DNA of 64,000 nt from Candidatus Omnitrophota bacterium (GCA_023247055.1 JAHFHF010000007.1:2186-66185), one strand, 5' to 3'; numbered from the stretch's first letter, positions 9,389 through 51,535 are shown. Notes: generated from the letters alone by a model not told the origin. Made by a program: numbers and translations.

Positions 9389-9568
9389 GACCAATCTTTC
9401 TTCTTGCCCCTCCGCGTCATGCGCAGGGACTTTGCCTCGGCGGCCAAGGAAGCCGCCGTAGGCAATCAGGACCAATCTTTCTTCTTGCCCCTCCGCGTCA
9501 TGCGCAGGGACTTTGCCTCGGCGGCCAAGGAAGCCGCCGTAGGCAATCAGGACCAATCTTTCTTCTTG
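9389..9568. repeat. 81-bp tandem direct repeat (2.2 copies) duplicating the 3' end of the bS22-like gene plus a GC hairpin
   Basis: Unit GACCAATCTTTCTTCTTGCCCCTCCGCGTCATGCGCAGGGACTTTGCCTCGGCGGCCAAGGAAGCCGCCGTAGGCAATCAG at 9389..9469 and 9470..9550 with a partial third copy. Each unit has the hairpin CGGCGGC-TTCCTTG-GCCGCCG. Confidence 0.85.
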
Positions 9569-18336: not shown

Positions 18337-21300
18337 TTAAGCGGAGATCGCAACCGCGAACTGATTGAGGAAATCGGCGGCAAGACGCGCGAGTGATTCT
18401 GAAATCACATACAGGCCGTTCTCACGCCGGATGGCCCAGCGAATGCCCGGCGCATCCGGGTCGTAACTCAAGGCCGCAGCCAACGTACCGGCACGTTCAC
18501 GCAGCAAACGAAACATGCGGATATTTTTTTGGGCCGGCCTGCTAAACCCGCTTTCATCCGAATTGGAAGCCCGTGTAAAGGCCACCACACGTCCTTCTTT
18601 CAACCTTGGGCTTAAGGCTTGATAGGCTTCTTCAGCGCTGCTTGCCGTCCAACTTACATTCGTAAAACCCCGAAACAATCGTTTAAACCGCAGCAGGCTT
18701 GAGTGGCTGCTGCGTGCGTTAAAAATCACAAAGCGCACCGCGCTGCGCTGTTTCATCACAATGACAGCCTCACGAATTTGTTCATCCGACAGCGCAGCCA
18801 GATCATCTAAACTCAATAGTGCTGTCTTCGCGGCATGCACGGGCTGGTTCCAAAATGTCAATTGTTGGGGTTGTGTGCCACGCTGGCTGCCCGGCAACCG
18901 GGGATTTAACTCCGCAAGCGATGCACTCGCAGATTTTGAATGTTTCTGCGTTCTGCGCAATTCGGCGCGTACAACCCAAGACCGTTCAAAGCGATTCAAG
19001 AGTTGGGCACTTTGAAAATGGAGGCGCTCAAGATCTGTTTTAATTTGGCTTAATTTTTTAAGATCCTCCGCTGAAAATAGCGCCTGACGCGAGGCCGTTA
19101 AAGCCGCATCGGACAAAGGCCGTGCCACACTCGCAGACGAAAAGAAGGCCTGTTCGTGATACTGATTCAGCGGTGATTTTTCAATCGTCTCGATCACCTG
19201 AATCGTCGCCCATAATTCCATGACTGTGTTCCTCAGCTGATTCCAAGACATATCTCGCCCATGGTCATGCCACGGTTTAAAAATGGCTACCAGCCCTTGA
19301 GAAAGCGTCTTCCAAAACGCAAGATTTTTTTCCTTTTCAGCATACTGTCCCGGCAGCAGTTCTTCGGACATCGTGCGTCTTTCGCGGACAATCAATTCGG
19401 ATGCAGCCGCGAGAATATCGAGCAGGGTATTCTTGGCTTCTTCGGAGGAGAGACGCGGATTTTGCGATGCAAGGCTTTCTTTGACTGTGGTACTTAAAGC
19501 AAACTCATATGGACCGTCCGCACCGGCCGTAGTTTGAAATCCATACTGTTCTAAGAGTTCCTGCGCTTTGGCCGGTGTACCGCCACTGTACTCTGCCAAC
19601 GGACGGATAGAGACCTGCTCACGCACGGCCGCTGCTTGCAAAATACGGCCTTTCAAACGGCGTTCCCTTTCAAAGTCTTTTTTCCACGCGTCATCCGCCG
19701 CTCTTTCATCCTCAAAAAACGCTCTCTGAAGAACGCGCACTTCGGACCGCTGCGCAGGATCACTCTGACCACGCCGGGTTTCTGCATCCACAATGCGAAG
19801 TTGTATTTTTAATAAAGTTCTCGCTTTAAATACGCCGTAGAGGATGCCGGGAATAAGGCCCAGCAATCCCGAAAGATGAGAACCCAGTGGTGCAGGAATC
19901 AGTCCCGCTCGCGCAAGTAGGATGCCAGCCGTTTCAACAATACCCGACGGCATTATAATCAATAGTGCGACGCTAAGCAGAAACATGAACCACCAACGCG
20001 CCCCAAAGCTTTCTCTTAGAAGCTCCCGCTTGGCTTCAAAGGATTCGGCGCTGATCGTGGGTTTCTTCTTCGCAAGAGCAGCATTCCAATGCCCCATTTC
20101 GAACATCGCTTCAAATTCGGTCGCCATATTTAAACCTGAATTCTTAAACTTTGTGACCGATTTTTGAAACTCTTCAAGATAGGCCCAGAGAATCCTGTTA
20201 TATACACCTTCGAAATCGATCTTCTCCGGTTCGGGAGAGGCCGAAGAGGGAGAAACCGTGCGTACTTCGGAGCGCTGGTGACGATAATCCAAAGGTACGT
20301 CGCGGCCCAACTCCATCAGCTGGCCTTTGGCCTGGGCGCGCAATTCCTGAAGGAAGGACTTGGGCAGGCTGTGCTCAACACGCTTGTGACGATAGTAATG
20401 CGCCAAAGGGTAAAGCAGCGCCACGGCGATGAACATACCGCCCAAGGCAATCCCAATATTCGCGAGCCTGAAATTGACCATGGCTTTGCCTGCGATAAAA
20501 ACGGCCGCGGCCGTTATGCCTAGGGTGGGAAGCAGCATCCGTTTTTCAAAAGTTTTTTGCGCTTGGTTGATCCGGTCAAGATTCCGGTTGGCATTATCCA
20601 GCATATCCAGCAGTTCGCTCTCGCGCTTTTCCTGAACGAGCTGCAAGACCGTCCGGCGGATTTCGTCAAACTGGGCTTCCGGGTTCGCCAAGACAGGCAT
20701 GTGCTCCATGGCATCAAAAGCCGGGGGCAAATCCAGCCGGAGCATTTGCGGACTAGCCTGATCATCCTGATGATTCAGCCAATAAGCGTATCCCACAAGA
20801 ACCGCCAGCGCCGCATATCCCGCAACCTGCGCCATCATGGCATACTTAGCGTCAAGGAATTGCAGACATAACGCAATTAAATAAACGAACAAAGCCGCCA
20901 TCATGGCCAGAACAAGACCTGTGGGATAATACTCCTCAAAAAAATCCCAAAACCCAGCCCGGCCGGATTGAATTTTATCCAAGTCTTTCAAGGCTGCTTC
21001 CAAAGAGGCCTTCTGGGTTTTGTCCCGCTCAAGAAGATGTATCCTTTTCCGGCCAAACGCGCTTGTGTTGACGCTCAAACTTTGCTGCACAGCCTGAAGC
21101 GCCAATTCGATTTTATAACGGGCAGTCAAAAAATAACGGTGGTCAAGATCTTGAAGCGCGCTCTTCAGAAGGTCTTTATTACCGCGCTGGGCATAGCTGT
21201 CATAAAAAACGGAAAAAAGCCGGGCTTGGAGGCTGATAAAATAAGGATTCCATTTGAGCCAGCGCCGGCTCAGCGAAGGGTATTCTTTTTGCAAATCTTT

Positions 21301-24300
21301 CCAGGCCTGAAACTGGACAAGCCAGAAAATTTTAGGCACTGGAGCATCCGGCCCGGCCGAGGCGGGCTCGCCGGCCGCATTTTGCTGCTGATGTTCTTCG
21401 GCTTCAACCGCATTTTGAATGGTTTCCAGCAAGCGCGCTAAATCCATTTTCTTCGGATTGGAATTAACGTAAAAAAAATATTTTCTGGAATCTTCACGCG
21501 TCTCGATCTCATGCAGATAAAATCCCGTGCTCCGCCAGCCGGCGACACTCTTCTGCGCGATCCTATCGATAGTTTCTCGGGCCTCATCCGACGCAGCGTC
21601 AGTGTATTCTTCATGCCACATGGCCGTAAACTCGGCATCGTTGAGAGGCCCGAAACGCACCTCGTGCTTGAGCCCATCGTTTTGTTTTAAAGCTTTCAGC
21701 GTCTCGTTGACCCGCCTAAGCAAAATCGCCGTTGTGTCCTGCGTTTCTGTTTGAGACGTCTCTTTCAGCGGATAGCGCGCCTCAAGCCGGCGCCAGGATT
21801 CAAATTCCTCCAGCCAAGCATTGTCGATATTGCGATGCAAAACCGACTTCATATCCTGCAAAATGCCGTTCCAGGGTATCTGAGAATATCGCGCGTCAAC
21901 AAAATAAAGATGTTTAAACTTAGCGTCCCGGAAGCCTGTTGCAGCAGAGGACTCAATGCGTTCATAAAGAGGACTGCGCAGATACGTGGCATTCAGGAAA
22001 CCTTTTTCACGCAACTCCTGATTGAGATGCCTCCCGCTGCTAGCTTGCAAGGGGGCAATTATCTCCTGCCAACGGGGATCTTGCGTAGTCAGAACTGTCA
22101 ATTCATGGAGATAGGGCAGAAAATCCGATTTAATTCCCGCTAAAACACGGTTGACGTCCACCGTAAAGGTCTCGATCTCCGCATGGCTGACGCGAACTTC
22201 GGAACGTCCAGTTCCGAAGTCGTCTGCCTGCACTTCGGAGAGGCTTGGCATAATCCATTTATTTTGTGAAAAATAATAAATATATTGACTAATAAGCATT
22301 CCTACGATATCCTGCCCACTGATCAAACCTTGATGGAGCGCCGCTATGGAAAACAATTCTGATCTCTCAGCCAAATGGGCTTTTGCGGCCAAGAGCCTTA
22401 TGACCTTTGCCCAAATTTTGACAACCGGAGCATTGGCAACAAAGCTTTTTAGTGAGCTCCCAATACCCTGGAGAATGGCCGTCGCCATTGGAGTTTTTTT
22501 GTTGATTATCGTAGCTATCCTGATATATCCTGCCGGTACAAAGGAACCCAATTGATATGGAAATCCCCATTCTTCTTTCTGTGATGGCCATCGGTATTTA
22601 TATCTGGTACCTGATTGATCAACACCAGATGAAAAAACGAAAGCAGTCTCACTAATTCCAAATGTATCCAGAAATTTTAATCGCCGTGATGGTGCCCTTT
22701 TTAGGAGCTTTTGTCTGGTATCTGATTGATCAGAACCGAATGCGAAAACGGAAACAGCCGCATTAATTTTTTTCTTTTTTAGCCCTTCCCGCATTTCTGA
22801 ACGCATGGCTGGCATAGCCGCTTGCTCCTGTAACAACCGTTCTACGGCGGCGGCATAATCCTGCACGGCCTTGGGCACATCCGGATTTTCGATAGGCGAT
22901 TTACTCAGGCTGCCGGCCATGCCGCGTCCACCGGCCTCCTCATAGCCCTGCGCCCTCAAATCTTGCCAGAAAGGCTCCGATAAATTTAAAAAGCGGCCGT
23001 CAGCATCCATAAACGTACGGATTTTGAATAAACGCGCAGGTCTCCCCGATCTCGGCGCAGCCGCCTTGACGGGCGTCGATACCACGATGGCTGAAATGCC
23101 CCTGAGCAAATCGGGCCGTTCCGAGCTCAGATATTGATAGGCCGAGGAACTCCAAACTTCTTTGGCTTCGTCATCAGGCACATAAAAGAAAAGCACGGGT
23201 CCGGCTTTACGCACCGTGCCTTGAGGCAGTCCCGGCACATCGAAACCGCCGCGCTGAATCATTTTTGCAATTACTTCGCGGTTTGTAAAATCACGCTGCG
23301 CGCCCCGGGCAAATAAATCGGCCATTTCCGGATCATCCGCTTGCAGGCGTCCCCTCTGGATGGCTTCATAAAGCCCGGCGGCGGAATAGGTCTTTCCTAG
23401 TTGCAACCCAAAGAACAGCGCGGAGCGGACTTTACGAATACCCTCCTCATAGGCCCATTCACCGGCAACTACTTTTTCTTCGATGGCTAAGAGGGTATTG
23501 TAAAAAATGAGCATGGTGTTCTGAGACTCTGCGTCCTGCGGCATCATTAGGTAGTCATTGAAAAGGGCAGCATTCGATAAAATCGAATGATGCGTCCGGA
23601 GAAATGCCGCATCGCCGGCATGCTCCATCACGAAATGCGAAAGCAGGATATCGGCATCGGCGTGGTCCATCAGCGCAAAAGAACGTTCCTGCAGTTTCTG
23701 AATTAAGGCGGTTTCATGATGCGCATGCAGGTAAAGCAGAAAATCGATCAAAAGCACCGTAGTGCTGATGGAGGCAAGCACGGGAAAATCATAATGATGG
23801 TCGATATGAAAAAGCCCGGGGTTTACTTTTAATCTGCCTAAAAAATCGCGAAACAATGTTTCGCGTTCTGCGGGAGTCAAAACTTGATACGGTTTATCGC
23901 GTAATGAAGCCGGCGTCCGCAGATTCACAATGTTGGATTCTCCCATCAAGGGATTTTTTGGGTTAAAATCCTGGATCCGCAGAATGCGTTGTTGGCCAAT
24001 ATCTCTGTGCTGTTCAAAGTAATCAAAAAGCATTTTAAAAACCCGGTCAGCCTGCGGAATTTTTTTGCGGCTGGCATAGAAGTATTTTGGAGTCAACTCC
24101 ACGCGCGCTGCCGGCGGCAAAATCATACTCAAACGGGCCTGCAACTCATCCAGCGGCAGGTCCGGTTCAGCAGCAAGTTCCTCTAATTGAACAAACATCT
24201 CTCTGGCGAGCCGCCGGACACGCGCCCCTTCCAGCCGGTCCATGTCTCGATGGGCGTGGTCAGCCGCTTCACGAATGCCGGTCCGCAGCATTTCAATTTC

Positions 24301-33300: not shown

Positions 33301-36300
33301 AATAAAACGCACACCTTCGTTTTGGACCTGTTTTAATTTTGCGAGGCGGCCGCTGCTGGGTCCGTCAATCACAGCCACTTTTTGATCTTGCCCGAGCCAC
33401 TTCGTAATTTCATTCTGCCAATTGGCCAAAAGATGATTCGGCGCCATGATCAAAACTTGTTTGGCGCCCGCATCCTGCGCTGCGATCAGCGCCTGAATCG
33501 TTTTACCCACGCCCATATCGTCGGCCAGAATGACACGGCCCGCATTTTCATGCCTGGCGAAATAAACTCCGGCGATCTGATGCAGCATCAATTCCGACGG
33601 ACTGATCGGGCCGCCGTTTCCGTTGCCATTGGTGTAATGCACATACTGCTGATAATTTTTCTGCTGCAGCGCCGCATAATAATTTTTAATCTGCTGATAA
33701 ATGGCCTGTAACTCTGCCGCCGCACCGGGGGGAGCCGTCTTAAACCAGGCTGCCGCTATTTGAAGGGCCTTTTGTGCTGTGGTTTTTTCAGGATCTTTGG
33801 GCAGCTTGAGCGCCGCCTCCAGCAGGGCATTGTAAATGCGCGTGATGATTTGGCGTTTGATCACTTCCCGGATCTCCTGCTGCACTTCGCTTGAAAATGA
33901 AGCTGCGGCAGGAGTATGCCAATATTGGCTAAGGGCCTTTTGCATTTTTTCGCCCATCAGTGTTTCGTGGCTAAAGGGCTGGATGTGATTATTGCTTTCG
34001 TAATCGAGAAACTTTTCGCTGATTAGGGCCAGCAGCGATTTCACCGGAAAATCCGGGTGCCGTTTCGCAAAAAGATAAAAGAGCGCGGCCTGGCCCTGAT
34101 CGGTATTGAAAAGATGCATCCAGGAATCCATGTCCATCTCTTCGGCGATTTGATTAAAAGACTGCCGCTGGCCGGCATTGATATGTTTCTCTAAATCGAG
34201 GCGCTGAGCGGCTTCTTCCTGGCCTTTGTAGGCAATTTTGTTTTTACTGAGTAAAAATTCGAGCGTCGAAACCGCAGAACCCTGCTTCTGACGCAGTTCG
34301 TCGTAATAACGATAAAGCGTATCAAGCCCGTAAGGCTTGGCCGCTTGGCTTAGCCGCAAGAGCGGCGTTTGCCTGAAAATCCGCTCCGCCTCGGCGCGGT
34401 CCAGCCGCATCCACTGATCGAGTGTCAATCCGGCGGATTGAAGTAAAAGCTGTACCAAAAAGCGGATCTGTGAAGGACTGCGCTTAGCCCAATCCACTTT
34501 TTGCGGATCCGTCAGCCAGGGGTCTGCGGCCCCTGCGGCCTCTTGGTGGCGCATCTCAGAGCGCGCAAATTTCGGAGTTAGAAGTTTGAAGTTGGAGGTT
34601 GGAAGATTCGAGCGGTCGGAAAATTCGGGATGAAATCTATTTTCTTTTTTACTTCCAACTTCCAACGTCCAACTTCCAACTTTTTGGCGCATCTCAGAGC
34701 GCTGCAGGGGCCGGGCCCCTTTTGCTTTTCTCTTGGGGGCGGGCTTGAAAATGATTTCTAATTCCCATCGCTGCAGATCAGGCACACCGGATAAAACGGC
34801 CAGCCGTTCCTGCGCACTCGCCCGGGCGTATTCTTCCTTGAGTAAAAATTCAGCCAGCTTGAGCGCATTCTCACGCGAAATGGTTGGCCGCACTTTATGG
34901 GTCTTGGTTGTCTTCCCTGTAAACCACCAGAAGACTGTCCAGACATTCACGCCGACAGCATCCACGATGGGTCTATAAGAAACAGGCGATTTGCCTCGGC
35001 TGGGATATTTGGCTGCCGCCACACGAGCGGCATTTTGCAGAAAATGTTTCTTAAACTGACGCACCTGTTTGCGCCGCGCCTGGGTCCCCGCACGATCATC
35101 CAGATGACCGCGAATAAACCATTTCCCGGGAACTTTGATTAAAGTCTGACGCTGTGTTTCCGAAAGAACGACTTCGTCATTGCGAGGCTCCCGCTGCTTT
35201 TTGGCGGGCGGCGAAGCAATCTTCAGCCCGGAATTTGCCGCAGTCTTTGCGGCGCCTTGTAAGGCATTTCCCCTTTGGGGCGGCGCGCGGTCTTTGCTAG
35301 CCGTTTTAGGCGATGCCGTTTTTTTCTTTTTCCCCGCCTCATAAGGAAAAAACACTTCAAGCTGTGCCGGCGTTAAATCAGGATTGCCGGCCATCCGCGC
35401 CAAAAGCTTATGACTTGAATCGTGCGGATAAGTACTCTTCAGTAAAAATTCAGAGGCCAACAAGGCATTTTCCCTGGAAATGATCCGTCGCTTGATCCAG
35501 TGCGTGATCATGCCCGCATGCCCGCGCCCTCGCGTTTTTACCAGATGCGGCGAGACATAGTCTGCCAGATTTTGGAGTATGACTTTATTTGTCCTTTTTT
35601 GCAGCAAAAGCATTGTTTCCAAATTATCAAAAAAGCTATCTCGAAGTTTGGCCGTGTCCGAAAATCCTCGGACTTGCCGCAATGTTTTCCACACTTCAAG
35701 CCCTTCAAGCGCCGGCGCTACAGAGCGCATCTCAGACCTAGCCCGAGCATCATCCGAAGCTGGCCTTCGGCGTATTTCGCTTCGCATGGGGTTCACGATT
35801 CGGGCAGTATCGAACACTTTATTTTTTAAATTAAAATTAAATAAATATTGATTTAAAATAAATACTCGGATATTATGTTTTATCCAAATAAAAATACGGG
35901 CGATCGCATGAAGATAGGGACTCTTCGAGATGAAAGACAAGACACGCCGGTATGAAACCGGTAAAATGCTGATTGATTTATCAAAATATTTTGCGACGGC
36001 AATTGCCGCCGGTACTATTGCCAGCGGCCGATTTGATTGGGGAGTCGTCATTACCGGGCTAGTGCTGGCATTTCTAAGCTGGGCTATCGGATTTGTAACC
36101 ATCCCGGAGGATAAGGAGAGCAAATGAGTAATTTTGAAGTCTTTGCCATTGGCTTCGTTGTTTTCGTCTCGATGGTCGGATTGATTGTGGCGATTAATCA
36201 CCGCTTGAGTGAGCGGCAGCGTCCCCATCCGCCCCACGGCACTTAAGCTGGGGATGCGACGAATTTCTGAGCGCTGCGCTTGAAGAATTTGGCCGTAACG

Positions 36301-39300
36301 CATCAGAGCCGCCCGCATCACAGGCTCAGCCGTTGTACGGATAAGCTCGAGATACTCCAGACGCGCTTGAAAAAGCCGCTCCAAAATTTCAATTTTGCTT
36401 TCCTCAGACTGCCGGCCAAATGAACTCCAAAGATTATCCCAATCCCGAAGCCGGTGCTCCACTTGAGCGGGGGCTTGATGAATAACCTCACTGCCGCCCT
36501 CGCCCCATAAAATCATTTCAGGGCGCGAGAGCTCCGAATGTAAAATGATTTCAAAAAACTCTTTTGACAGCACCTCCAATTTCGCAGACAGAAACCGTGC
36601 TTGGCCATCCCGCCGGATATCCTCGAGAAAAAGACCAGCACCTTCAATTTCATGATCCAAACCGCCAAGAAACCACGCCGCGCCCCGCAGGCTTGCCTGC
36701 TGTAAAGTTTCGTCGTCGTTTTCTTTAAAAAAAACATCGGCTCCGAGCGCCCAAAGCCGGCCCCCGCTATTGGACGTATTCAGTTCTGAAAGTACTGTCA
36801 TCGGATCTTGAACCAATTCCGGAAACATCCCGCTCCAAGGCGCGGGCAGATCGAACAGTTGTGAAAATTTTTGATAAAAATTCAACGCCTCCGGCCGCGT
36901 ATGAGGCCAAAATCTTTCCGCCCAGATTTTAGCCCAGCTGCTGAAACCATCCAGATACACGCCGGCCAAATTAACCGGCTCTGAACCCGGCAGCCATTCT
37001 TGTTTCATGCCCGGCCGCGGATCTCGAATAAAAACGCCCGTGGTCTTTAACGCCTCGACTTCATTCGTTTGGCGATAGCGGGCATATACTTCTATCGCCA
37101 ACGCGTTGAAAGGATAAGTCATGAAATCAGAAACGTATTGACCATAGGCCGCATTCAATCGTTCTGCCTGATGATCCCAAACTTCAGAACCTGTGCGATT
37201 GATAAATTCCAAAGCAGAATCAGAAAAAAGCGAGAACTGCCGGAAGTCCTTGGCGTGCGTCAAATCAAGCTGTCTCATTTTGGCCGTCGCTGCTGCGATC
37301 GGCGGTGTATGGAATAAAATTCCAACAAACCAACTTAAAATCTCGTTTATAATGGTCGTTATAGCGTTGTTTATTCTCGGTATTATCTTAGCCGACAAAC
37401 TAGACAACAAAGGACGGTAACTCCATGTTTGGTCTTGTAACCATCTTTCTCCTATTTTCCACGGTCGCTCTATGGATTGCATTGGAGAGGTATTTTTTAA
37501 ATCGCCGAAAGCATTAAGCCTGCTCGGCTGAATTTGCCTCAATTCTGACCGAGCCTCTCCCCCAATCTGATCCCATGTTTCAGTCACAGTAATCAAACGC
37601 ATAAAAAAATCTTCGAGTGCTTGGGGAGTGCGTCCAAAACTTGCCGGCGTGAAAATAAGCTTTTTCGGAGCCGTCGCTTCATGCCAGAGTTGTTGAAGTG
37701 TCATAGCGCTATCATCTGATTTTTTTTCTGCGGCTTGGATGAGATAACTGGCAAGCGGATACTGGGTAAGCAAAAAGTCGTACGCATGGTGAGAATCCCA
37801 CATCCCATCATCCAAATGCGCAATGCGGTTCTTAAATTCTTCAGGTGTCATCTTGTGGCCAAACATTAAAAACGAGTAAAGCCGGATAAACATCTCAAAA
37901 TTCGCAAAAGGCCCATAGTTTTCAGGTTCTGGAATCGCCCGTTCATCAAGCTCCCATTTCAAAGTTTCCATAATACGTTCAGGTGCGGTCTTCTTAGCAA
38001 GTTCCGCATAAAGCATCTGGCTCAAACTCAACGCATGCGCCATTTGTTTTACAAACTTCGGGCTCTGAAAATTCCATGTACGTTCTCCATCTGCAAGTTT
38101 CCACACTGCGGGATTCTGCCCCCGAACCTCCGATCGCCCAACAGCATCCCGATTCTTTGGTTCAACACCCTTGGCTCTTGTCTCAAGCAGCTGTGCTTTG
38201 AGGCTGCCTTGACCAGCCATGGTTCTTAGGCTAGTCTTCGAAAAGGGAGAAATATTCCATGCAAAAAGTTGCCGTAACACTACTACCCAAGCAAGCTGAG
38301 ATTTTGATTGAACAGCTTGTTCAAAATCTGGATTTTGAAGCCAAATACCGTTTGGTCCAGAAACTACAGCGTGAAATGCGCCGCGCCCGCTGGGAACCCC
38401 TGGTTCTGAAAATGCGGCGGCGTTTTGCCTCAAAACCCCTTTCTTCCCGTCAAATCCGGCGGCTCTGTGAACAGGTCCGCCAAGAACGGTTTGAGCGTGC
38501 GGGTCGTCGTTGACACCAACGTTTTTATTGCCGCCCTTCTGCAAGGGAATACTCCCCGAAAAGTCTACGATTTCCCCCCCCCTCACTTCCGAGCGATAAG
38601 ATTCCGCGTTTCCAAGAAGAGATTTGAGTGTTTTGAATTTCCACGGGCCAAGACGCGCCTGATTGATCGTGAGCGTTGCTTCCACATCCAGCCATTCGGG
38701 CGGAATATGCATCAAGAAGCCGGCGTCGTCGCCTTTGAAAAGAACCTGCTGTTTCATTTCAAGCCAGGGAATGTCTTTGAGCGATTGATAATGACTGCGG
38801 ACTTCTTCAGGCAGTTTTGCACCCAGGCCCAGCGAAGGATCAAGCGCCCAGGTTTTCTTTTCGTCTATCGAATCCGATTCGATCAAATGTGTGCTAGGCA
38901 CACGAAAGATCAGAACAATATCATTTTTTTCAGGCCCTCGTTTTTCAACGCTTTCCTGATCCCGGTAAAAAACAGTCCTCCAGGGCAATTGGTAAAGGCC
39001 GTACCAGGCAATCAAATCGATGGTTTTAAGGCCTTTGCTCGAGTCATGTATAACGTGATAGACAAGGCTGTCTCCGGTCTCTGCTGCTTTTTTGTAATTC
39101 GATCCTTCAGCATGGACCTCATAGGCTGTGGTTTTACCACCGCTGCGCACGATCGAAGCCGCGGCCGGAATCGAGCGATATAAATGCAAAGAAGCTTCGG
39201 GAAGCGTGCGTTCCAAGCCGCCGGGCTGCCAATCATGGGTTTTGATGACTCTCAGCTTATCGCCCGTGTTAAATCCATTGGGCAGCTCGTACAGCTCGAG

Positions 39301-42201
39301 CGCATCATCGGCCTGGATCCTCTCAAAAACCCAGTCTCTCACGCTATCGAGAGTCCCGATAAAAGGGCCTTCTCTTTGCAACGACGTCTGCGGATTCAAA
39401 CGTTCCAGCAGAGTTTCGAGCAGGCGGACACGCATCCGCAAATAATCAGCCAGCGCCGGATTGTCCTCTTCAAAAAGATACGCATAATCCGCAAGCTCAT
39501 GCGTTTCTGCGATATAATCATGCACAAACTCGTCTTCATCTTCAGCTACTTCCAAACGCTGCTCGTCGTCTAAAAGAACCCGGTCGAATTTTTGAACGGC
39601 GGGAACTATTTTCCGGATTCTCTGAATCTGCTGTTCGTAGGTCAGCGCTTCCCATTCCTCACCCGTAACGCCGCCTATCTTCAGAAGACGCTCACTTAAT
39701 TTTGCAAACTTGTTTCGATTGTTCAAAACACGTTGAATCATACCCAGCTTATCCGCAAGTTCTCGATCCTGACGCTCGCTTGCGGGCAGCCGGATTAAAT
39801 AAACAGTTCCCATAATCGCCAACCCGCCAAACAAGGCTGACATAAGCCATAAAATGGGTTGACCTGCAATGGCTGCACCGGCCAAACCTGCAGTCATCAC
39901 CCAGGCCAGCACCGTGCCGGCATAAAACTCTCTTATTTTTTTCCGGTGCTCTCTGGCCTTTGCACTTAGTGCTTCTTCACTGGCATTCTGGCCGCGCATC
40001 TCGGATCGAGGCTCCGCCGAGTTCACAGAAGTGCCGGACCTCCGCGTCCGGCGCATCTCAGAACGCAAAGACATGCCCGTCACAACGGCGGCTTCATGCG
40101 CCGCTGCGCTGGATTTGTTGACAGCAGGTTTCCCGATAACGATCGCGTCAAACCCGTTTTCAGGAACGCGGCCGTAAAGACGCGTAGATTCCCAAAAGCT
40201 GCTCCAATAGCGCTCCGGCCTCTTCACTTGTTCACGCGCAATCAGTTCATCCAGCACAGTTCTGTCGTCCAGCCGGGTTAAAGGGCTCATCTCCGGCATG
40301 CGTTTGAACATTTTCTGCAAATCATCGCTCGCCATCGCCAGCACGTGATAGCTGTGATAGGGCTTGAGGATTTGCCGCAGTAAAGCCTGGCCTCTTCCAC
40401 GGATGGGCTCTGCTGTATCCGGAAATCGCGGATAGAACGCCGTGATCCGGATCAGCTTGGCCTCATCATAAACACGCGCGCTGATTTTCCGGTCTTGATT
40501 GAGTTGATGGCCGGACCTATCGAAAACATCCGCCAAAACTTCTGTGTACAGAAATTTATTTTCACTTTCAGACGACCCTGCCGCATAAACCGGAGTTCTT
40601 TGAATGCGGACCGTAAAACCTTCCAGCCCCGGCATGTCCTGCACTGTTTCGATCTGGGGTAAACTGCCTTTCGCCTCCATTCGCATTTCAGACATGGCGA
40701 GGGCCCGCGAACGCGCAGACGGTTCTTTAAGTTTTAGGGCTGCTTCGCGCGCCGAGCGCACAAGCGTCATGCCCGGCGGCAAGGTTTGCATGACTTCACC
40801 GAGAGTCCTGATTTCATGCGCGATTGATAAATCGCCCGCCTGTTGGAGTTCTACGACACTGATGGGGCGCGATAGACGCGGCAGCTTTCCAGCCTCGAAC
40901 GGATTGATGCCGCCGGCCATGATCTGGCGGTAATAGTCTTTGTGTTTCTTCTCAATTCTCGAGATGACCGGCGAAATGACCGCGTAACTGACTCCGGCTT
41001 CATTCAGCATTTCGCGGATACGGCCGGCATGAAAACCGCCGTAGACCAGCACCGCTGTTTTTTCATCCGCAGATTCTAAAAAATCCGCGAGAGCCAGTTT
41101 CACTTGGTCGTCCCGTTTAAGGGCTGTCTCATAAAACTCAAAAGCGCTGCGGATACTTTTTTCCCAGCGCCTAGAAAGTACCACGGTCCGGCGGCCATGG
41201 CGCGCCACAAATTCCGCGAGGGCCTGCATTCGCAGTCCGGCCAGTGTGGTTTTAATGTGCGCGTATTCTTCGGCCGTCATCTCGATCTTGTTCAGGCGCT
41301 TGAGCATCTGCAGGTCGTTGTAGAACTTGAAAAGATTGCGGCTGTCGTCTGTTTTCAAAAAATGAACCGCAAGGTCTTTTTCCAGCTGATCCATTTCTTG
41401 CCACAGGCTGCTTGCATTGTGCTTTTTAACTTCTTCAATCGCCGCGGCCTGTTTACTGTCGAGCGCGCGCAAAACCCCGGCCAACCCCGGGTAGCTGACG
41501 GCAAAAGCCGGCGCGCCCATGACGGGAATGGCTAGACGCGCGGTCTCGCGCGCATAAAACGCAAAGTCGGTACGCTGGTTTTCAAAATCTTGTTTGAGGC
41601 GCAGGAACTGCTGCAGGGGTTTGGGCAAAAGCTGCGGCACAAGGGTCTTGAGTTCTTTTTCGGCGCTGCGAAGTTCAGCGTCAATCATGGCCTGGACGGA
41701 TGCGGCTTGGCGGTACCAGGCCGCGCTTTCAAAATGTTCTCGGATATTGTCGGCGCCGATCAGATGGAAGTCTTTTTGACGGTTGATGTGCGCATATTCG
41801 GCCGCGCCGATTTTCAGCTTATCGAGCAGAAAATACGAAACACGCCGTTTGACTTGGGCATCTTGAATCGTTCCGAAAAGTTTATCGGTAGGCACAGGCC
41901 CTTCATAGCCTTCTTCAAAAACCGTGCGCACGCCGTGGTTTTCCACCAAATGCGTAATGAGAGCGGCAATGTTTTCCTGGGCCTCGAGCGAGTCGTGGGC
42001 ATCCTGGATGAAGAGGACGGTCTTGGCAGAAAGGCCGCGCTGAAAAGTTTCAACGGAGGCTAGGCGGGGCGGAATGGAAAACGGCGTTTCGATTTTAACC
42101 GGTGCTGCGCCCGCAGAGGCAGGCACACTGAGACACACACTTAAAAACAATGCTATAAGTTTAAAGAAAGCACGCAAAAAACGGCTGTTCGTTTTAAACA
42201 C
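18337..42201 (-). CDS. giant multidomain membrane-anchored protein (7954 aa) with an SNF2-family ATPase core and RNAP alpha-CTD-like HhH domains
   Basis: Uninterrupted 23,865-nt ORF. GTG start at 42201..42199 with AAAGGA ten nt upstream. N-terminal signal anchor, at least six internal TM segments, SNF2 motifs (GVGKT, DEIH, RVYRIGQ), the recurring RSEMR pentapeptide, and internal tandem repeats. TAA stop at 18337. Confidence 0.85.
   Translation of the reverse strand: [7954 protein letters not shown]
27240..27640 (-). other. two helix-hairpin-helix segments resembling the RNA polymerase alpha C-terminal domain, within the giant protein
   Basis: [51 protein letters not shown] follows the alpha-CTD pattern (LxLSVRxxNxL ... 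G.L...S..ELL...FG.KSL.E). A second, weaker copy ([34 protein letters not shown]) follows. Confidence 0.5.
30157..30250. repeat. family A palindromic element, copy 3, in-frame inside the giant ORF
   Basis: GTCATTGCGAGACACC...GTCGAAGCAATCTCGGACGC...CCTCGCAATGACAAAA. Translated in the giant frame as [35 protein letters not shown]. Confidence 0.75.
32000..33570 (-). other. SNF2-family helicase/ATPase core (DEXDc plus HELICc) within the giant protein
   Basis: Motif I [11 protein letters not shown] at about 33498..33521. Motif [11 protein letters not shown] at about 33188..33217. Helicase C-terminal motif [17 protein letters not shown] at about 32100..32160. Confidence 0.85.
34549..34702. repeat. 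in-frame inverted-repeat element inside the giant ORF, bounded by 16-nt direct repeats GCGCATCTCAGAGCGC
   Basis: DR at 34549..34564 and 34687..34702. Between them GTTAGAAGTTTGAAGTTGGAGGTTGGAAG ... CTTCCAACTTCCAACGTCCAACTTCCAAC (inverted arms of TTGGAAG 7-mers). One DR plus insert is 138 nt, which is 46 codons. Confidence 0.7.
35848..35876 (+). promoter_or_regulatory. consensus-like sigma70 promoter on the plus strand inside an AT-rich island of the giant ORF
   Basis: TTGATT (35848..35853), 17 nt, TATTAT (35871..35876). Local GC is about 20 percent over about 90 nt, against about 57 percent in the surroundings. Confidence 0.4.
40790..42080 (-). other. N-terminal extracytoplasmic domain of the giant protein, possibly TraB/GumN (TIKI)-like
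   Basis: After the signal anchor: [21 protein letters not shown]...[11 protein letters not shown]...[11 protein letters not shown]. This loosely resembles the GxxH ... E ... VVVGxxH arrangement of the TraB/PrgY/GumN family. Weak, pattern-level only. Confidence 0.25.
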
Positions 42202-42405: not shown

Positions 42406-43695
42406 CTAGTTCGACAGAGGCAATTCGGCAGGCTTGGCGGGAGGAATCTCAGAGGCCAGCAAGGTGACCTGGCTGTTTTTGATGGCGACGAGTTTATCGT
42501 CAAGGCGCTTGCGGACACTGGCGAGTTCAAGTTTGGTGTTACGCAATTCGCGCGAGAACTGATCGCGCAGTTTTTCGATACGTTCGCGCTCCGCTTCGTT
42601 GAAATCAAAGAAGGTCAAACAAAGTTGAAAGCGCTGGCCTTCACGTTCAAAACTGCGCTGTAAACTATCGGCCTTTTTATAGCGTCCCTCCACCTGCACA
42701 AGATCAATTTCCGTGGGTTTATCGCGATCCACATATTTGACCGCTTCATGCGTATAACCGGCAATCTCATGCGCGCGCGCCGCGACCATATGCGACAGCC
42801 GGTTGATCCAGAAAGAAAGACGGCGGCGGATCAAGACATCGCGGAAGCGTGCCAGAATATCCTCATGCCGCTCTAGTTTACCGGCCGTCACTTCAAACTC
42901 AAGCGTTGCCAACGGCGGCACTTGCGATTCGCCAAGCAGGCGCGCGATAAAAAAGACGGAAGCCAGAATGAAGATCCAGAATTCCGCGGCAATCAGAAAA
43001 TGCTCGAAAAAACGCGGGCTGCCAATGGGCGCAACTTCGCCGTAAGCGGCACCGGTCAGGAAGAAGAGCGCGGCATGCACTGAAAAAAGCACATGCGGCA
43101 GTTTGCCGGTCTTGTCCGCCGCTTTGATTAAAAGCGCGGGGACAAAAAGAAATCCAAACGCCAAAAAGACGCAGAGCCCGAGATAAAAAACCGAAACCCC
43201 GAAATTGGCGGCGGCAATAAACGCAAAATAACCTGAGATTTTCAGTTCACCGGCCTGGGCCGCTGCTTGCTGGCTGACCATGAACATCACTAATGCATAA
43301 AAACTCAGCGTCAAACCGATCAAAGTCAAACTGGTCTTATCGCGCACACCCAGCAAACGCGCCTGGATCTTCTCCCCTTTTTGCAAAAAGGCCGGCAGGT
43401 AAAAGCCAAAAATCATGACGGCATGGAAAAGGGCGACAAATTGAACTTTTACGGCAAAAATCGGCGGCAGACCACTCAGTTCCGCAATCCCTTTAAGCGC
43501 CAGGCCCAAGGCGGTCATCCCCACCAAAGCCATAGCCCAGGTTTGGGCCCTTTCAGCATTTTCGATGGAAATCTGGGACTTGAGGCGTGAAGAAAGAAAA
43601 CTCACCCATTGATCAGGCAGTAAGGATTTCATAAGTGGCGTATTATAGGCGGATGCCCCAGCCGCTTGCAAATTAAAAAAATCATAGCGACTCAC
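42406..43695 (-). CDS. polytopic membrane protein of unknown function with a C-terminal charged/coiled-coil region; directly upstream of the giant gene
   Basis: 429 aa with about 8 predicted TM helices in the first 250 aa, then a charged helical tail. Same strand as the giant gene, 204 nt upstream of it. Confidence 0.6.
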   Translation of the reverse strand: MSRYDFFNLQAAGASAYNTPLMKSLLPDQWVSFLSSRLKSQISIENAERAQTWAMALVGMTALGLALKGIAELSGLPPIFAVKVQFVALFHAVMIFGFYLPAFLQKGEKIQARLLGVRDKTSLTLIGLTLSFYALVMFMVSQQAAAQAGELKISGYFAFIAAANFGVSVFYLGLCVFLAFGFLFVPALLIKAADKTGKLPHVLFSVHAALFFLTGAAYGEVAPIGSPRFFEHFLIAAEFWIFILASVFFIARLLGESQVPPLATLEFEVTAGKLERHEDILARFRDVLIRRRLSFWINRLSHMVAARAHEIAGYTHEAVKYVDRDKPTEIDLVQVEGRYKKADSLQRSFEREGQRFQLCLTFFDFNEAERERIEKLRDQFSRELRNTKLELASVRKRLDDKLVAIKNSQVTLLASEIPPAKPAELPLSN

Positions 43696-47503: not shown

Positions 47504-47623
47504 GTGGCATACCGCTTGCACTGATACGTATGCATTTTTGTACCTGCCGCAATTTAAGGTCTGCTTTTGATACCTCGGGGCAAGGCAAAATTTTGGAACG
47601 GTTTATCCGCTTTTAATCTTTAA

Positions 47624-49309
<1,686 letters not shown>

Positions 49310-49338
49310 GATCACTCAAACATTTAAATTTTTAATTC

Positions 49339-49891: not shown

Positions 49892-51535
<1,644 letters not shown>

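What the first reader, a model, noticed from the sequence alone, without database searches (positions are those of the whole stretch)
18337..42201. 7954-codon giant ORF encoding a membrane-anchored SNF2 ATPase protein with RNAP alpha-CTD-like domains
A single uninterrupted 23.9 kb reading frame on the minus strand runs from a GTG start at 42201 to a TAA at 18337. A chance ORF of this length is impossible. The translation has ordinary protein-like composition through nearly all its length; the exceptions are the two in-frame repeat insertions and an AT-rich island.

Recognisable parts:
- an N-terminal signal anchor (FKLIALFLSVCLSVPASA);
- a weak TraB/GumN-like region;
- at least six further TM helices scattered along the chain;
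- a complete SNF2/Swi2 ATPase core (GVGKT, DEIH, RVYRIGQ);
- two HhH segments that follow the RNA polymerase alpha-CTD pattern;
- a thrice-repeated LGTGYxxGNLxGxWY module;
- the pentapeptide RSE[MVI]R about 15 times.

SNF2 plus alpha-CTD-like DNA-binding modules in a multiply membrane-spanning protein of this size is not a described architecture. It is reminiscent of RapA, but 8 times larger and membrane-embedded. Giant genes of this kind have been reported from Omnitrophota-like uncultivated lineages. The product may be a surface or envelope machine that contacts DNA or RNA polymerase. A 429-aa polytopic membrane protein gene sits directly upstream on the same strand, a likely operon partner, and the HDAC-family gene converges on its 3' end.
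Basis: partly seen in the sequence, partly recalled or inferred. Interest (0 to 1): 0.95.

Follow-up and report, generated by a model that had tools for sequence, protein, structure and literature searches.

The report
Capped, motif-punctuated giant secreted protein
The 7,954-codon gene is real and belongs to a very large, apparently undescribed Omnitrophota family of cysteine-free secreted proteins: a hydrolase-like head and a fixed tail enclose a string of protein-sized units separated by the motif R-S-E-x-R, which probably marks cutting sites, and the SNF2 ATPase is only one of about 14 such units.

Summary
The ORF (18337..42201, minus strand, 7,954 aa) is genuine. Independent assemblies reproduce it, and one calls the same 7,954-aa product.

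Recognised domains are an SNF2 ATPase core and one RNA polymerase alpha-CTD. The important result is the architecture.
- **Head:** a cleavable Sec-type signal peptide, then a 430-aa N-terminal cap. Its predicted fold matches the TIKI/ChaN/EreA/TraB hydrolases, and Asp-x-His, Glu and His residues are invariant.
- **Body:** about 14 protein-sized units, each bounded by R-[S/A]-E-x-R. There are 16 copies; 15 match RSE[MVIL]R against 0.06 expected.
- **Tail:** a roughly 195-aa C-terminal cap with a degenerate HAD-like fold, ending in -SA.

The N-cap defines at least 8,543 clusters, always N-terminal. Genome hits are almost all labelled Omnitrophota or unclassified. Family members carry SecA, sigma-70, GalE, NadE and kinases as cargo.

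Three further properties:
- The family nearly excludes cysteine (0.13% against 1.08% in neighbouring genes).
- The motif never falls inside the Pfam domains I checked.
- Its variable residue is genome-specific across paralogues, which implies a co-evolving recogniser.

Best reading: an exported polyprotein cut at RSExR, possibly by its own N-cap. Cleavage and delivery are inferred, not shown. The upstream 429-aa gene is not a conserved partner.

The parts
18337..42201 (-). Whole gene: 7,954 codons, GTG start, TAA stop
   Evidence: The same 7,954-residue product is called on an independent 74-kb contig.
42112..42201 (-). Signal peptide, aa 1-30: basic n-region, short hydrophobic core, PASA|GA site
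   Evidence: Sequence. The same pattern (basic, 12-15 hydrophobic residues, AxA or YA|A) is seen in the homologue N-termini printed. No signal-peptide predictor was available.
40798..42090 (-). N-cap, aa 38-468: TIKI/ChaN/EreA/TraB-like hydrolase fold with a large helical insert. Invariant residues are D67-A68-H69, E97, E135, E347, R363 and G388-G389-F390-H391; H138 is at least 90% conserved.
40051..40065 (-). RSEMR, aa 713
39994..40008 (-). RSEMR, aa 732, followed about 25 residues later by a basic then hydrophobic stretch
38581..38595 (-). RSEVR, aa 1203
38122..38136 (-). RSEVR, aa 1356
37537..37551 (-). RSELR, aa 1551
36259..36273 (-). RSEIR, aa 1977
35770..35784 (-). RSEIR, aa 2140
35725..35739 (-). 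RSEMR, aa 2155
34702..35724 (-). Unit aa 2160-2500. It holds a roughly 100-aa domain that is present twice, just upstream of the SNF2 unit, in the homologue P0169/L017.
34687..34701 (-). RSEMR, aa 2501
34549..34563 (-). RSEMR, aa 2547. This is the N-terminal boundary of the SNF2 unit and aligns with RSELR-704 of P0169.
30268..34548 (-). SNF2 unit, aa 2552-3978, conserved at 31-34% identity with P0169, where it is bounded by RSELR and RSEVR
32002..33582 (-). SNF2 ATPase core, aa 2874-3400: motifs I GVGKT, Ia, II DEIH, III, IV, V and VI RVYRIGQ
   Evidence: Pfam, PDB, sequence
27466..27648 (-). RNA polymerase alpha-CTD-like helix-hairpin-helix domain, aa 4852-4912
   Evidence: PF03118, 51 bits, E 1.2e-13. 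PDB RpoA CTD hits.
27202..27399 (-). Possible second alpha-CTD-like helix-hairpin-helix segment, about aa 4935-5000. No model match.
   Evidence: Read by eye only
27076..29250 (-). Region holding three degenerate LG-x-G-Y/F-x3-N-L-x-G-x-W copies, at aa 4318, 4608 and 5023. The third copy has a weak match in P0169 (E 7e-4).
26134..26148 (-). RSEMR, aa 5352: end of the 2,800-aa motif-free block
25198..25410 (-). Two adjacent TM-like hydrophobic segments, aa 5598-5668
   Evidence: Hydropathy
23728..23787 (-). TM-like segment, aa 6139-6158
   Evidence: Hydropathy
22789..22803 (-). RSEMR, aa 6467
22192..22206 (-). RSEVR, aa 6666
19912..20928 (-). Three TM-like segments: aa 7092-7118, 7244-7267 and 7399-7430
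   Evidence: Hydropathy
20260..20274 (-). RSEVR, aa 7310
19735..19749 (-). RSEVR, aa 7485
18970..19734 (-). Unit aa 7490-7744, shared with family members P0001, P0010, P0108 and P0065
18955..18969 (-). RAELR, aa 7745: the last motif, immediately before the C-cap
18340..18927 (-). C-cap, aa 7759-7954: alpha/beta HAD-like fold without the HAD catalytic motif. The chain ends ...FAVAISA.
42406..43695 (-). Upstream 429-aa polytopic membrane protein. It is adjacent but not a conserved partner.
   Evidence: No Pfam or NCBIfam match. A homologue lies beside 1 of 80 related loci, on the opposite strand.

Best explanation
**What it is (shown).** This is one intact gene. It encodes an unusually long member of a very large protein family whose genome hits are almost all Omnitrophota or unclassified MAGs. 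Every member has the same frame:
- a Sec-type cleavable signal peptide;
- an N-terminal cap of about 430 aa with a TIKI/ChaN/EreA/TraB hydrolase fold and invariant Asp-x-His, Glu and Gly-Gly-Phe-His residues;
- a variable string of protein-sized cargo units (median 287 aa), each bounded by the pentapeptide R-[S/A]-E-x-R;

The family almost excludes cysteine. This protein has about 14 units. The largest block (aa 2552-5351) holds an SNF2 ATPase with a full motif set, an alpha-CTD helix-hairpin-helix domain, and probably a second one.

**How it most likely works (inferred).**
1. The chain is exported through Sec.
2. The R-S-E-x-R sites are recognition sites at which the chain is cut into its units, so the gene product is a polyprotein.
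3. The recogniser co-evolves with the sites genome by genome. The best candidate is the TIKI-like N-cap, acting in cis or between paralogues.
4. The cargo includes nucleotide-dependent enzymes such as this SNF2 unit. They can only work where ATP and DNA are present, which for an exported protein means inside another cell.
5. The protein is therefore best seen as a multi-effector delivery polyprotein of a host-dependent or predatory bacterium, analogous in logic to MARTX toxins.

**Status of each step.** Shown: architecture, motif statistics, genome-specific motif variants, cysteine exclusion, predicted folds. Inferred: export, cleavage, identity of the protease, delivery.
For: **Gene integrity.**

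**Family.**
- All 120 listed hits to aa 1-2000 cover only the N-cap and carry very diverse Pfam cargo.
- The N-cap profile finds 8,543 clusters at 50% identity with E <= 1e-3, and 3,460 with E <= 1e-30. The match is N-terminal in all 150 listed hits, in proteins up to 6,720 aa.
- 158 genomic relatives were found. The best 80 are in MAGs labelled Omnitrophota or unclassified, one labelled Planctomycetales. Sampled genomes hold up to 5 paralogues.
- Family genes occur in tandem arrays.

**Caps.**
- N-cap model has pLDDT 88.9.
- Invariant D67-x-H69, E97 and H391 lie after beta-strands. This matches the 2His/2Glu arrangement described for TIKI enzymes (PMC6254334).
- Two of 28 N-caps give weak Pfam hits to ChaN, best E 0.0036.
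- The C-cap sits at the exact C-terminus in at least 88 of 120 homologues. It has a HAD-like fold, and its last Ala is invariant.

**Motif.**
- 15 RSE[MVIL]R against 0.06 expected in this protein.
- 358 against 1.9 expected across 283,000 family residues.
- None in 10,795 residues of the other ORFs in the window.
- 1.86 per 1,000 aa in family ORFs against 0.25 in other ORFs of related loci. 20 of those 21 other-ORF copies sit in seven cysteine-poor same-strand ORFs, five of them cut at the locus start and so probably fragments of neighbouring family genes.
- Synonymous codons vary at the motif, so selection acts on the peptide.
- No motif falls inside any of 13 Pfam domains mapped in three homologues. 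Naturally two-domain proteins such as NadE stay undivided.
- The SNF2 unit begins at the motif in both this protein and P0169, where a second motif closes it.
- Two motifs in the same protein share the variable residue with probability 0.51, against 0.233 +/- 0.015 when shuffled.
- That residue is the same across non-homologous paralogues of one genome. One genome uses RSELR throughout and another mostly RSEAR.

**Export.**
- N-termini look like classic signal peptides.
- Cysteine is 0.13% in the family and 2 of 7,954 here, against 1.08% in neighbouring genes. Cysteine exclusion from exported proteins in bacteria without a disulfide-forming system is established knowledge (Dutton et al. 2008 PNAS, from memory).

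Against: - There is no direct evidence of cleavage: no proteomics, and no known protease with R-S-E-x-R specificity.
- TIKI-superfamily members include non-proteases, namely erythromycin esterases and haem-binding ChaN.
- Catalytic equivalence of the invariant residues is inferred from pattern and secondary structure, not from a residue-level superposition.
- Export is inferred from sequence only. No signal-peptide or topology predictor was available.
- Internal features point to processing before export or to stepwise membrane insertion. Examples are a Tat-type signal directly after an RSEMR in homologue P0100 and hydrophobic segments enriched just after motifs, 37% against 16% expected.
- No route across the outer membrane or into a target cell is known for these proteins, and the window holds no secretion genes.
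- At least one cargo domain in a homologue looks catalytically dead: the NDK of P0031 has Gln in place of the catalytic His (read from the sequence). Cargo may therefore not all be enzymes.
- The taxon of the window itself was not established directly.
Confidence: 0.5

Rival explanations
1. Uncleaved tethered string. The chain stays in one piece in the envelope or on the surface, as a 'coat' or scaffold. R-S-E-x-R is then a short linear docking or modification motif, or a linker-defining element, that a partner protein recognises. It is not a cutting site.
For: - Giant Omnitrophota proteins have been proposed to form a surface coat and to mediate attachment (PMC10066038).
- 94% of long Omnitrophota proteins are predicted to have TM helices or signal peptides (bioRxiv 10.64898/2026.06.07.730766).
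- The genome-specific motif variant fits any co-evolving binder, not only a protease.
- This protein has six TM-like segments.
Against: - Units correspond to whole proteins, some with their own N-terminal targeting signals. Such signals have no role in an uncut chain.
- ATP-dependent cargo such as SNF2, SecA-like domains, kinases and NadE would be useless outside a cytoplasm.
- The invariant catalytic-type residues of the N-cap would be left unexplained.
Confidence: 0.25
2. Cytoplasmic polyprotein. The chain is cut at R-S-E-x-R inside the producing cell. The units then act as ordinary cellular proteins, and some are exported one by one through their own signals. The gene is a way of co-expressing many proteins.
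For: - An internal Tat-type signal lies directly after a motif in P0100.
- The first hydrophobic segment of a unit lies within 60 aa of the motif in 76 of 203 units, against about 33 expected.
- Cargo consists of cytoplasmic-type enzymes.
Against: - The family has a classic N-terminal signal peptide, and 85 of 120 members have no other hydrophobic segment.
- Family-wide cysteine exclusion is not expected for cytoplasmic proteins.
- SecA-type domains in giant proteins are divergent extra copies alongside normal SecA (bioRxiv 10.1101/2023.11.21.568195), so cargo is not the cell's working set.
- Extracytoplasmic-type cargo, such as M23 peptidase and alpha-amylase, sits beside sigma-70 in P0024.
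Confidence: 0.12
3. This is a dedicated membrane-embedded SNF2/alpha-CTD machine, a giant relative of RapA, that contacts DNA or RNA polymerase at the envelope and works with the upstream 429-aa membrane protein.
For: - The SNF2 motifs are intact.
- An alpha-CTD is present.
- TM-like segments are present.
- The 429-aa gene lies 204 bp upstream on the same strand.
Against: - SNF2 and alpha-CTD occupy one block of about 14 units. The same frame carries unrelated cargo in thousands of relatives.
- The RapA model scores 69.7 bits against a cut-off of 576.
- The 429-aa gene is not a conserved neighbour.
- In P0169 the SNF2 unit appears without an alpha-CTD match.
Confidence: 0.07
4. Artefact: a chimeric assembly, several genes fused by sequencing error, or a decaying pseudogene.
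For: The only support is the extreme length and the lack of database matches for most of the chain.
Against: - Four independent assemblies agree, and one calls the same 7,954-aa product.
- There is a single N-cap at the start and a single C-cap at the end, in one frame.
- Sixteen family-specific motifs are spread along the whole length.
- Cysteine exclusion holds throughout.
Confidence: 0.02

Closest known systems
Omnitrophota giant genes, in particular the 'multi-enzyme' class of very long proteins (West-Roberts et al. 2023 bioRxiv; Seymour et al. 2023; Nielsen & Lui 2026 bioRxiv)
   Same: - Same apparent phylum.
- Very long ORFs with a signal peptide and/or TM helices.
- Many unrelated enzyme domains (methyltransferases, kinases, GTs, HAD, NUDIX, SecA-like) tiled on one chain.
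- Cleavage into smaller products has been suspected.
   Different: - Those papers treat proteins of >= 10-30 kaa and classify them by Pfam content.
- In the texts I could search, none mentions a conserved N-terminal TIKI-like cap, a conserved C-terminal cap, an R-S-E-x-R delimiter or cysteine exclusion. The terms 'motif' and 'linker' were searched only in the 2026 paper and give 0 hits there, where 'cleav' also gives 0. A motif-string search of the library finds nothing relevant.
- The C39 and S8 peptidase, dockerin and SecA domains that they emphasise are absent from this protein.
MARTX toxins (multifunctional autoprocessing repeats-in-toxin)
   Same: - Large secreted proteins with conserved N- and C-terminal regions enclosing a variable array of effector domains.
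- An in-built protease cuts between effectors to release them in the target cell.
   Different: - MARTX ends are glycine-rich RTX repeats, export is by type I secretion, and the processing enzyme is a cysteine protease.
- Here there are no RTX repeats and an N-terminal Sec signal.
- There are essentially no cysteines.
- The candidate protease is the N-terminal TIKI-like cap.
- A defined pentapeptide marks the boundaries.
- This is an analogy of logic, not homology.
TIKI / TraB-PrgY-GumN / erythromycin esterase / ChaN superfamily
   Same: - It has invariant acidic-x-His, Glu and GxxH residues placed like the 2His/2Glu centre.
   Different: - No Pfam or NCBIfam model reaches threshold.
- A helical insert of about 230 aa splits the core.
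- It is always fused to a signal peptide and to a long cargo chain.
- The substrate is unknown.
SNF2-family ATPases such as RapA, and defence-system SNF2 proteins (DrmD, ZorD)
   Same: The SNF2 unit has the full helicase-like motif set and matches SNF2-rel_dom and Helicase_C above threshold.
   Different: - All specific NCBIfam equivalog models are far below cut-off: RapA 69.7 against 576, DrmD 75 against 950, ZorD 75 against 1500.
- The flanking roughly 900 aa of the unit have relatives only in another family member, P0169.
Viral and other polyproteins processed at short consensus sites
   Same: Protein-sized units are joined by a short, strictly conserved consensus, and a hydrolase domain is encoded in the same chain.
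   Different: - This is a chromosomal bacterial gene among housekeeping genes.
- No relatives were found in viral contigs.
- Cleavage has not been demonstrated.

Membership tests
Capped, RSExR-punctuated modular proteins of Omnitrophota (unnamed family defined here) | N-terminal Sec-type signal peptide followed directly by the conserved cap of about 430 aa | tested here: met
   HMM match at aa 38-468, E 2.6e-176. Signal sequence.
Capped, RSExR-punctuated modular proteins of Omnitrophota (unnamed family defined here) | Conserved C-terminal cap ending exactly at the C-terminus with -[S/A]-A | tested here: met
   aa 7759-7954, E 1.8e-45, chain ends AISA. Same position in at least 88 of 120 homologues.
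Capped, RSExR-punctuated modular proteins of Omnitrophota (unnamed family defined here) | Repeated R-[S/A]-E-x-R between protein-sized units | tested here: met
   16 copies; 15 against 0.06 expected. Family-wide 358 against 1.9.
Capped, RSExR-punctuated modular proteins of Omnitrophota (unnamed family defined here) | Near-absence of cysteine | tested here: met
   2 of 7,954 residues, one in the signal peptide and one in a TM-like segment. Family 0.13% against 1.08% in neighbouring genes.
TIKI / TraB / EreA / ChaN superfamily (N-cap) | Parallel beta-sheet core flanked by helices, structurally similar to known members | tested here: met
   [not shown]
TIKI / TraB / EreA / ChaN superfamily (N-cap) | 2His/2Glu-type catalytic residues at the ends of the core strands | tested here: inconclusive
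   D67-x-H69, E97 and GGFH391 are invariant in 79 sequences and follow predicted strands. No residue-level superposition was available. Definition taken from PMC6254334.
TIKI / TraB / EreA / ChaN superfamily (N-cap) | Match to a curated sequence model (PF01963, PF04187, PF05139) | tested here: not met
   No hit for this protein. 2 of 28 homologues hit PF04187, best E 0.0036.
TIKI / TraB / EreA / ChaN superfamily (N-cap) | Hydrolase (peptidase or esterase) activity | not testable with these tools
   Needs an enzyme assay.
SNF2 family ATPases | SNF2-related N-lobe plus Helicase_C above Pfam thresholds, and motifs I to VI | tested here: met
   102.6 bits (cut-off 24.9) and 52.4 bits (cut-off 23.5). 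GVGKT, DEIH and RVYRIGQ and the remaining motifs read.
RapA (RNA polymerase-associated SNF2 protein) | Equivalog-level match over the whole RapA architecture | tested here: not met
   NF003426 scores 69.7 bits against a cut-off of 576. Only the ATPase lobe aligns.
RNA polymerase alpha subunit | Alpha-CTD helix-hairpin-helix domain | tested here: met
   PF03118, 51 bits against a cut-off of 23.8, aa 4852-4912. PDB RpoA CTDs.
RNA polymerase alpha subunit | Alpha N-terminal (assembly) domain, full rpoA | tested here: not met
   rpoA equivalog models score 34-49 bits against cut-offs of 227-523, over the CTD only.
HAD phosphatase superfamily (C-cap) | Rossmannoid HAD core fold | tested here: met
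   [not shown]
HAD phosphatase superfamily (C-cap) | Motif I DxDx(T/V) with the nucleophilic Asp | tested here: not met
   In the 26-sequence alignment the first Asp is variable (D, A, S, H, N, P) and the +2 Asp is absent. The only invariant column is the last Ala.
MARTX toxins | RTX glycine-rich repeats at both ends and an internal cysteine protease domain | tested here: not met
   No such Pfam matches. Only two cysteines in the chain.
Archaeovorin / Dockerin-type Omnitrophota giant proteins | Dockerin, SecA-DEAD, C39 or S8 peptidase domains | tested here: not met
   None found in ten overlapping 1,000-aa tiles. Definition.
Polyvalent proteins of phages and conjugative elements | Location on a mobile element or phage | tested here: not met
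   Flanked by gatCAB, tsaD, alr, birA, coaX and groEL. No relatives in viral contigs.

The most novel reading that the evidence does not exclude
Omnitrophota encode thousands of Sec-exported, self-processing polyproteins. An N-terminal TIKI-type peptidase cap would cut its own chain, and those of its paralogues, at genome-specific R-S-E-x-R sites. That would release up to about 14 separate effector proteins for use in or on a host or prey cell. Here the effectors include an SNF2 DNA translocase with alpha-CTD DNA/RNAP-binding modules. This would be a bacterial protein-delivery strategy without a described precedent.
Probability: 0.25. Interest if true: 0.92.

Novelty: new variant of a known kind. 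Interest (0 to 1): 0.78.

Why it matters
Giant genes of Omnitrophota are a recognised puzzle. Published work asks whether the products act as one chain or are cut up, and notes that the lack of known cleavage points blocks domain-by-domain analysis.

The R-S-E-x-R delimiter, with the conserved head and tail, gives a concrete and testable answer:
- It predicts where the chains are divided.
- It splits a 7,954-aa enigma into about 14 units that can each be modelled or expressed.
- It nominates a candidate processing enzyme, the TIKI-like cap.
- It provides simple markers (cap profiles, motif density, absence of cysteine) for finding the whole family, which has at least 8,543 clusters.

If the polyprotein and effector reading holds, it would show how host-dependent nanobacteria deploy large and rapidly shuffled sets of enzymes, including a chromatin-remodeller-type ATPase, against other cells. 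If it fails, the genome-specific co-evolution of a pentapeptide across non-homologous linkers still needs an explanation.

Tried and rejected
**Searches that failed or were limited**
- Word-indexed searches with aa 2552-5351 returned only remote SNF2 hits. aa 3976-5351 returned nothing. Even so, a real relative of the SNF2 unit (P0169/L017) exists and was found through the genome loci.
- No hits for either cap, the 429-aa protein or most units in NCBIfam, or in PDB sequence searches beyond SNF2 and alpha-CTD.
- The afdb50 fold library was unavailable.
- One large alignment failed and another was too large for structure prediction.
- Look-up of the HDAC product failed because of the start-codon choice.
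- Cluster look-ups gave no organism names.
- Two coordinate and frame mistakes of mine.

**Ideas tested and rejected**
- **The C-cap is a duplicate of the second half of the N-cap.** An iterative HMM search suggested this. It was profile drift: hhalign between the two cap alignments gives probability 0.3%.
- **The motif is a nucleotide-level signal** for recombination or RNA processing. Synonymous codons vary freely at it.
- **The protein has internal repeats.** Self-BLAST finds none.
- **The 429-aa gene is a partner**.
- **The gene has a phage or mobile-element origin**.
- **The ORF is a fusion of two family genes.** It has only one N-cap and one C-cap.

Full report
**1.

The ORF listing returns a single ORF at 18337..42201 on the minus strand: 7,954 codons with a GTG start. 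Translation has one terminal stop and ordinary composition, except for only two cysteines, at residues 23 and 7112.

Pfam on ten overlapping 1,000-aa tiles finds only three domains:
- SNF2-rel_dom, aa 2874-3122, E 2.8e-29;
- Helicase_C, aa 3248-3359, E 7.5e-14;
- RNA_pol_A_CTD, aa 4852-4912, E 1.2e-13.

PDB sequence searches agree. All SNF2 motifs can be read in the sequence.

RSE[MVI]R occurs 14 times, with one RSELR and one RAELR besides. RSE[MVIL]R is 15 observed against 0.06 expected from shuffles. Hydropathy gives an N-terminal hydrophobic segment and six internal TM-like segments.

Some claims are weaker than stated:
- The claimed triple LGTGY module exists only as three degenerate copies.
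- The second alpha-CTD-like segment is visible only by eye.
- The 'two repeat insertions' and the 'AT-rich island' are not borne out.

**2. It is not an assembly artefact**

- Contigs from Logan SRR14366787 and ENA ERZ27276474 are 100% identical to the window across the 5' part.
- A 74-kb contig from ENA ERZ27280021 differs by 2 bases in 16.7 kb and carries a gene call of exactly 7,954 residues.
- Two further contigs cover the 3' flank, and one of them reaches the last 556 codons of the gene.
- The gene lies among housekeeping genes: gatC, gatA, gatB, tsaD, rlmH, an HDAC-family gene, alr, birA, coaX and two groEL copies.

**3. It belongs to a family with a fixed frame**

A search with aa 1-2000 returned 152 proteins, and the 120 listed align only to the first 450 residues or so. 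They are 1.1-3.5 kaa long. Those with organism names are mostly from Omnitrophota, with two labelled Verrucomicrobiae. Their Pfam content is strikingly diverse: SecA, sigma-70, PEP-utilising enzymes, APH kinases, glycosyltransferases, methyltransferases, NUDIX, radical SAM, epimerases, M23 peptidase, and SNF2 in P0019.

Reading the sequences and mapping BLAST and HMM hits shows the shared elements:
- **An N-cap.** It is aa 38-468 here.
- **A C-cap.** It sits at the exact C-terminus in at least 88 of 120 homologues. The remainder include partial sequences, and some may be truncated by contig ends. It is aa 7759-7954 here, and the chain ends FAVAISA. The last Ala is the only invariant column.

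The giant has exactly one of each cap, at its two ends.

The N-cap profile, searched against 1.84 billion representatives, finds 8,543 clusters with E <= 1e-3 and 3,460 with E <= 1e-30. The match is N-terminal in all 150 listed hits, and those proteins reach 6,720 aa.

In species-representative genomes 158 relatives were confirmed:
- The best 80 are in MAGs labelled Omnitrophota or unclassified 'uncultured bacterium', with one labelled Planctomycetales.
- Sampled genomes hold up to five paralogues.

Family genes also occur in tandem. None is found in viral contigs.

**4. The caps**

*N-cap*
- AlphaFold2 with a 28-sequence alignment gives pLDDT 88.9.
- Across 79 sequences the invariant residues include D67-A68-H69, E97, E135, E347, R363 and G388-G389-F390-H391. 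H138 is at least 90% conserved.
- D-x-H, E97 and H391 each follow a predicted core strand. That is the layout of the 2His/2Glu centre described for TIKI enzymes (PMC6254334).
- At sequence level, 2 of 28 homologues hit the ChaN model, best E 0.0036.

*C-cap*
- The model has pLDDT 86.9 and an alpha/beta fold.
- It lacks a conserved DxDxT motif. I take it to be a non-catalytic recognition or structural domain.

The two caps are not related to each other.

**5. The pentapeptide delimits protein-sized units**

- Family-wide, RSE[MVIL]R occurs 358 times against 1.9 expected. R[SA]E[MVILAT]R occurs 520 times against 6.7 expected. The flanks are unconserved and rich in A, S, G, P and E.
- Codons at the motif vary synonymously, so selection is on the peptide.
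- The other ORFs of the window contain none in 10,795 residues.
- In related loci the density is 1.86 per 1,000 aa in family ORFs and 0.25 elsewhere. 20 of the 21 'elsewhere' copies lie in seven cysteine-poor ORFs on the same strand, five of them cut at the locus start and so probably fragments of adjacent family genes.
- In three homologues, none of 13 mapped Pfam domains contains a motif. The motifs bracket units such as APH, GDPD, NDK, a receiver domain, and the two-domain NadE as one piece.
- Across 961 inter-motif intervals the median is 287 aa.
- The SNF2 unit of this protein (aa 2552-3978) is 31-34% identical to a unit of P0169 (3,751 aa, locus L017). In P0169 it runs from RSELR-704 to RSEVR-2072. 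The upstream boundary coincides with RSEMR-2547 here, and the preceding unit is also shared.
- In this protein no motif follows the SNF2 unit until aa 5352. SNF2, both helix-hairpin-helix segments and the LG..NLxGxW elements therefore form one 2,800-aa block.

**6. Something co-evolves with the motif**

Two motifs in the same protein share the variable fourth residue with probability 0.51, against 0.233 +/- 0.015 when shuffled. The preference is genome-wide across non-homologous paralogues:
- Five genes of one MAG use RSELR in 22 of 23 sites.
- Three genes of another use mostly RSEAR.
- Other genomes are mixed.

The units and linkers are unrelated, so duplication cannot explain this. It points to a recognition partner that differs between genomes.

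**7. Export**

- The printed N-termini show a basic n-region, a hydrophobic core of 12-15 residues and an AxA or YA|A site, as in cleavable Sec signals.
- 85 of 120 homologues have no further TM-like segment.
- Cysteine is 0.13% in the family against 1.08% in the window's other genes.
- Exclusion of cysteine from exported proteins is a known signature in bacteria that lack disulfide-forming machinery. I state this from my own knowledge (Dutton et al. 2008).
- No signal-peptide predictor was available, so export remains an inference.

**8. Mechanism**

The most economical reading has four parts:
1. The chain is a Sec-exported polyprotein.
2. R-S-E-x-R marks the sites at which it is divided.
3. 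The TIKI-like N-cap is the best candidate for the processing enzyme. It is the only invariant catalytic-type module in every member, and its superfamily contains site-specific endopeptidases (TIKI, RRSP).
4. The cargo includes ATP-dependent enzymes such as this SNF2 unit, so it is meant to act inside another cell.

This fits the host-dependent or predatory lifestyle proposed for the phylum. The logic resembles MARTX toxins, but none of their defining parts is present.

Evidence that cuts against a simple version:
- A Tat-type signal lies directly after a motif in P0100.
- Hydrophobic segments are enriched just after motifs: 76 of 203 units against about 33 expected.
- The NDK of P0031 has Gln in place of the catalytic His (sequence).
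- No secretion route across the outer membrane is known.

I put the cleaved, exported polyprotein reading at about 0.5. An uncut envelope string with a docking motif is about 0.25. A cytoplasmic polyprotein is about 0.12.

**9. Comparison with what is known**

- Omnitrophota giant ORFs are described (PMC10066038; bioRxiv 10.1101/2023.11.21.568195).
- A 'multi-enzyme' class has been catalogued for proteins of >= 10 kaa (bioRxiv 10.64898/2026.06.07.730766).
- Cleavage has been suspected on the basis of C39 and S8 domains, with the explicit remark that cleavage points are unknown.
- In the texts I could search, none of these papers mentions the caps, the motif or cysteine exclusion.
- Searches of the library for the motif strings, or for TIKI/TraB together with Omnitrophota, find nothing relevant.
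- No curated Pfam or NCBIfam model covers either cap.

I therefore class this as a new variant of a known kind. The giant gene as such is expected for this phylum, but the frame that organises it appears to be undescribed.

**10. Limits**

- The taxon of the window was not established directly. It is inferred from the distribution of the family.
- About 6,500 of the 7,954 residues still have no assigned fold.
- Cleavage, topology and delivery are untested.

Noticed in passing
window 47651-49309 (+) and 49913-51535 (+); antisense ORF 47603-49315 (-): Two GroEL/Cpn60 paralogues lie in tandem. A 570-codon ORF with no family match runs antisense across the whole of the first one and is probably a shadow ORF.
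   Followed up: partly
window about 14342-14779 (-), between gatA and gatB: A 145-aa gene with 23S_rRNA_IVP / bAvd (four-helix bundle) Pfam hits is inserted inside the gatCAB cluster. This comes from the gene calls of the near-identical contig L085.
   Followed up: no
window 34651-34682: A 7-bp tandem array (ACTTCCA x 4.6) lies inside the 41-aa mini-unit between RSEMR-2501 and RSEMR-2547. It is the only tandem repeat in the gene.
   Followed up: partly
window 9470-9487, against L085 16657-16755: The near-identical contig from ERZ27280021 aligns in two overlapping pieces here. This suggests a small repeat-length or indel difference between strains, outside the giant gene. It also has 2 SNPs in 16.7 kb.
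   Followed up: no
window 55604-57172 (+): A transglutaminase-like protein fused to a 7-TM module (Transglut_i_TM, Transglut_core, 7TM_transglut).
   Followed up: no
homologue P0100 (3,254 aa), roughly residue 900, just after an RSEMR: A twin-arginine (Tat) type signal, SRRNFLKTAGAAVSTATTGG, lies about 20 residues after an RSEMR motif in the middle of the chain. The unit looks as if it was once, or becomes, a separately exported protein.
   Followed up: partly
homologue P0031, NDK domain, aa 1468-1590: The nucleoside diphosphate kinase cargo reads ...HNKIQASDS... where canonical NDKs have ...N-x-x-H-G-S-D-S. The catalytic His is replaced by Gln, so some cargo may be pseudo-enzymes.
   Followed up: no
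L003 and L004 (contigs carrying P0019): Three family genes stand head to tail: a fragment ending in a C-cap, then P0019 (3,478 aa, SNF2 cargo), then a 7,015-aa gene. The 7,015-aa gene has a more divergent N-cap (HIQDAH..., IEGLKG, YTGGFH) and PTS-HPr and receiver-domain cargo.
   Followed up: partly
window 40693-40707 and about 40816-40827 (aa 499-503 and 459-462): Degenerate motif copies lie at the end of the N-cap: MSEMR at aa 499-503 and HEIR at aa 459-462. In many homologues a [RK][AS]E[LIV]R sits at the corresponding place, inside the last helices of the N-cap model. It could be a first cis site or a pseudo-substrate.
   Followed up: no
L007 3699-4862 (minus strand of the locus): This is the only homologue (42% identity) of the 429-aa membrane protein found beside a family gene. 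It lies on the opposite strand there, in a MAG (CAYGIT) whose family genes mostly use RSEAR.
   Followed up: partly
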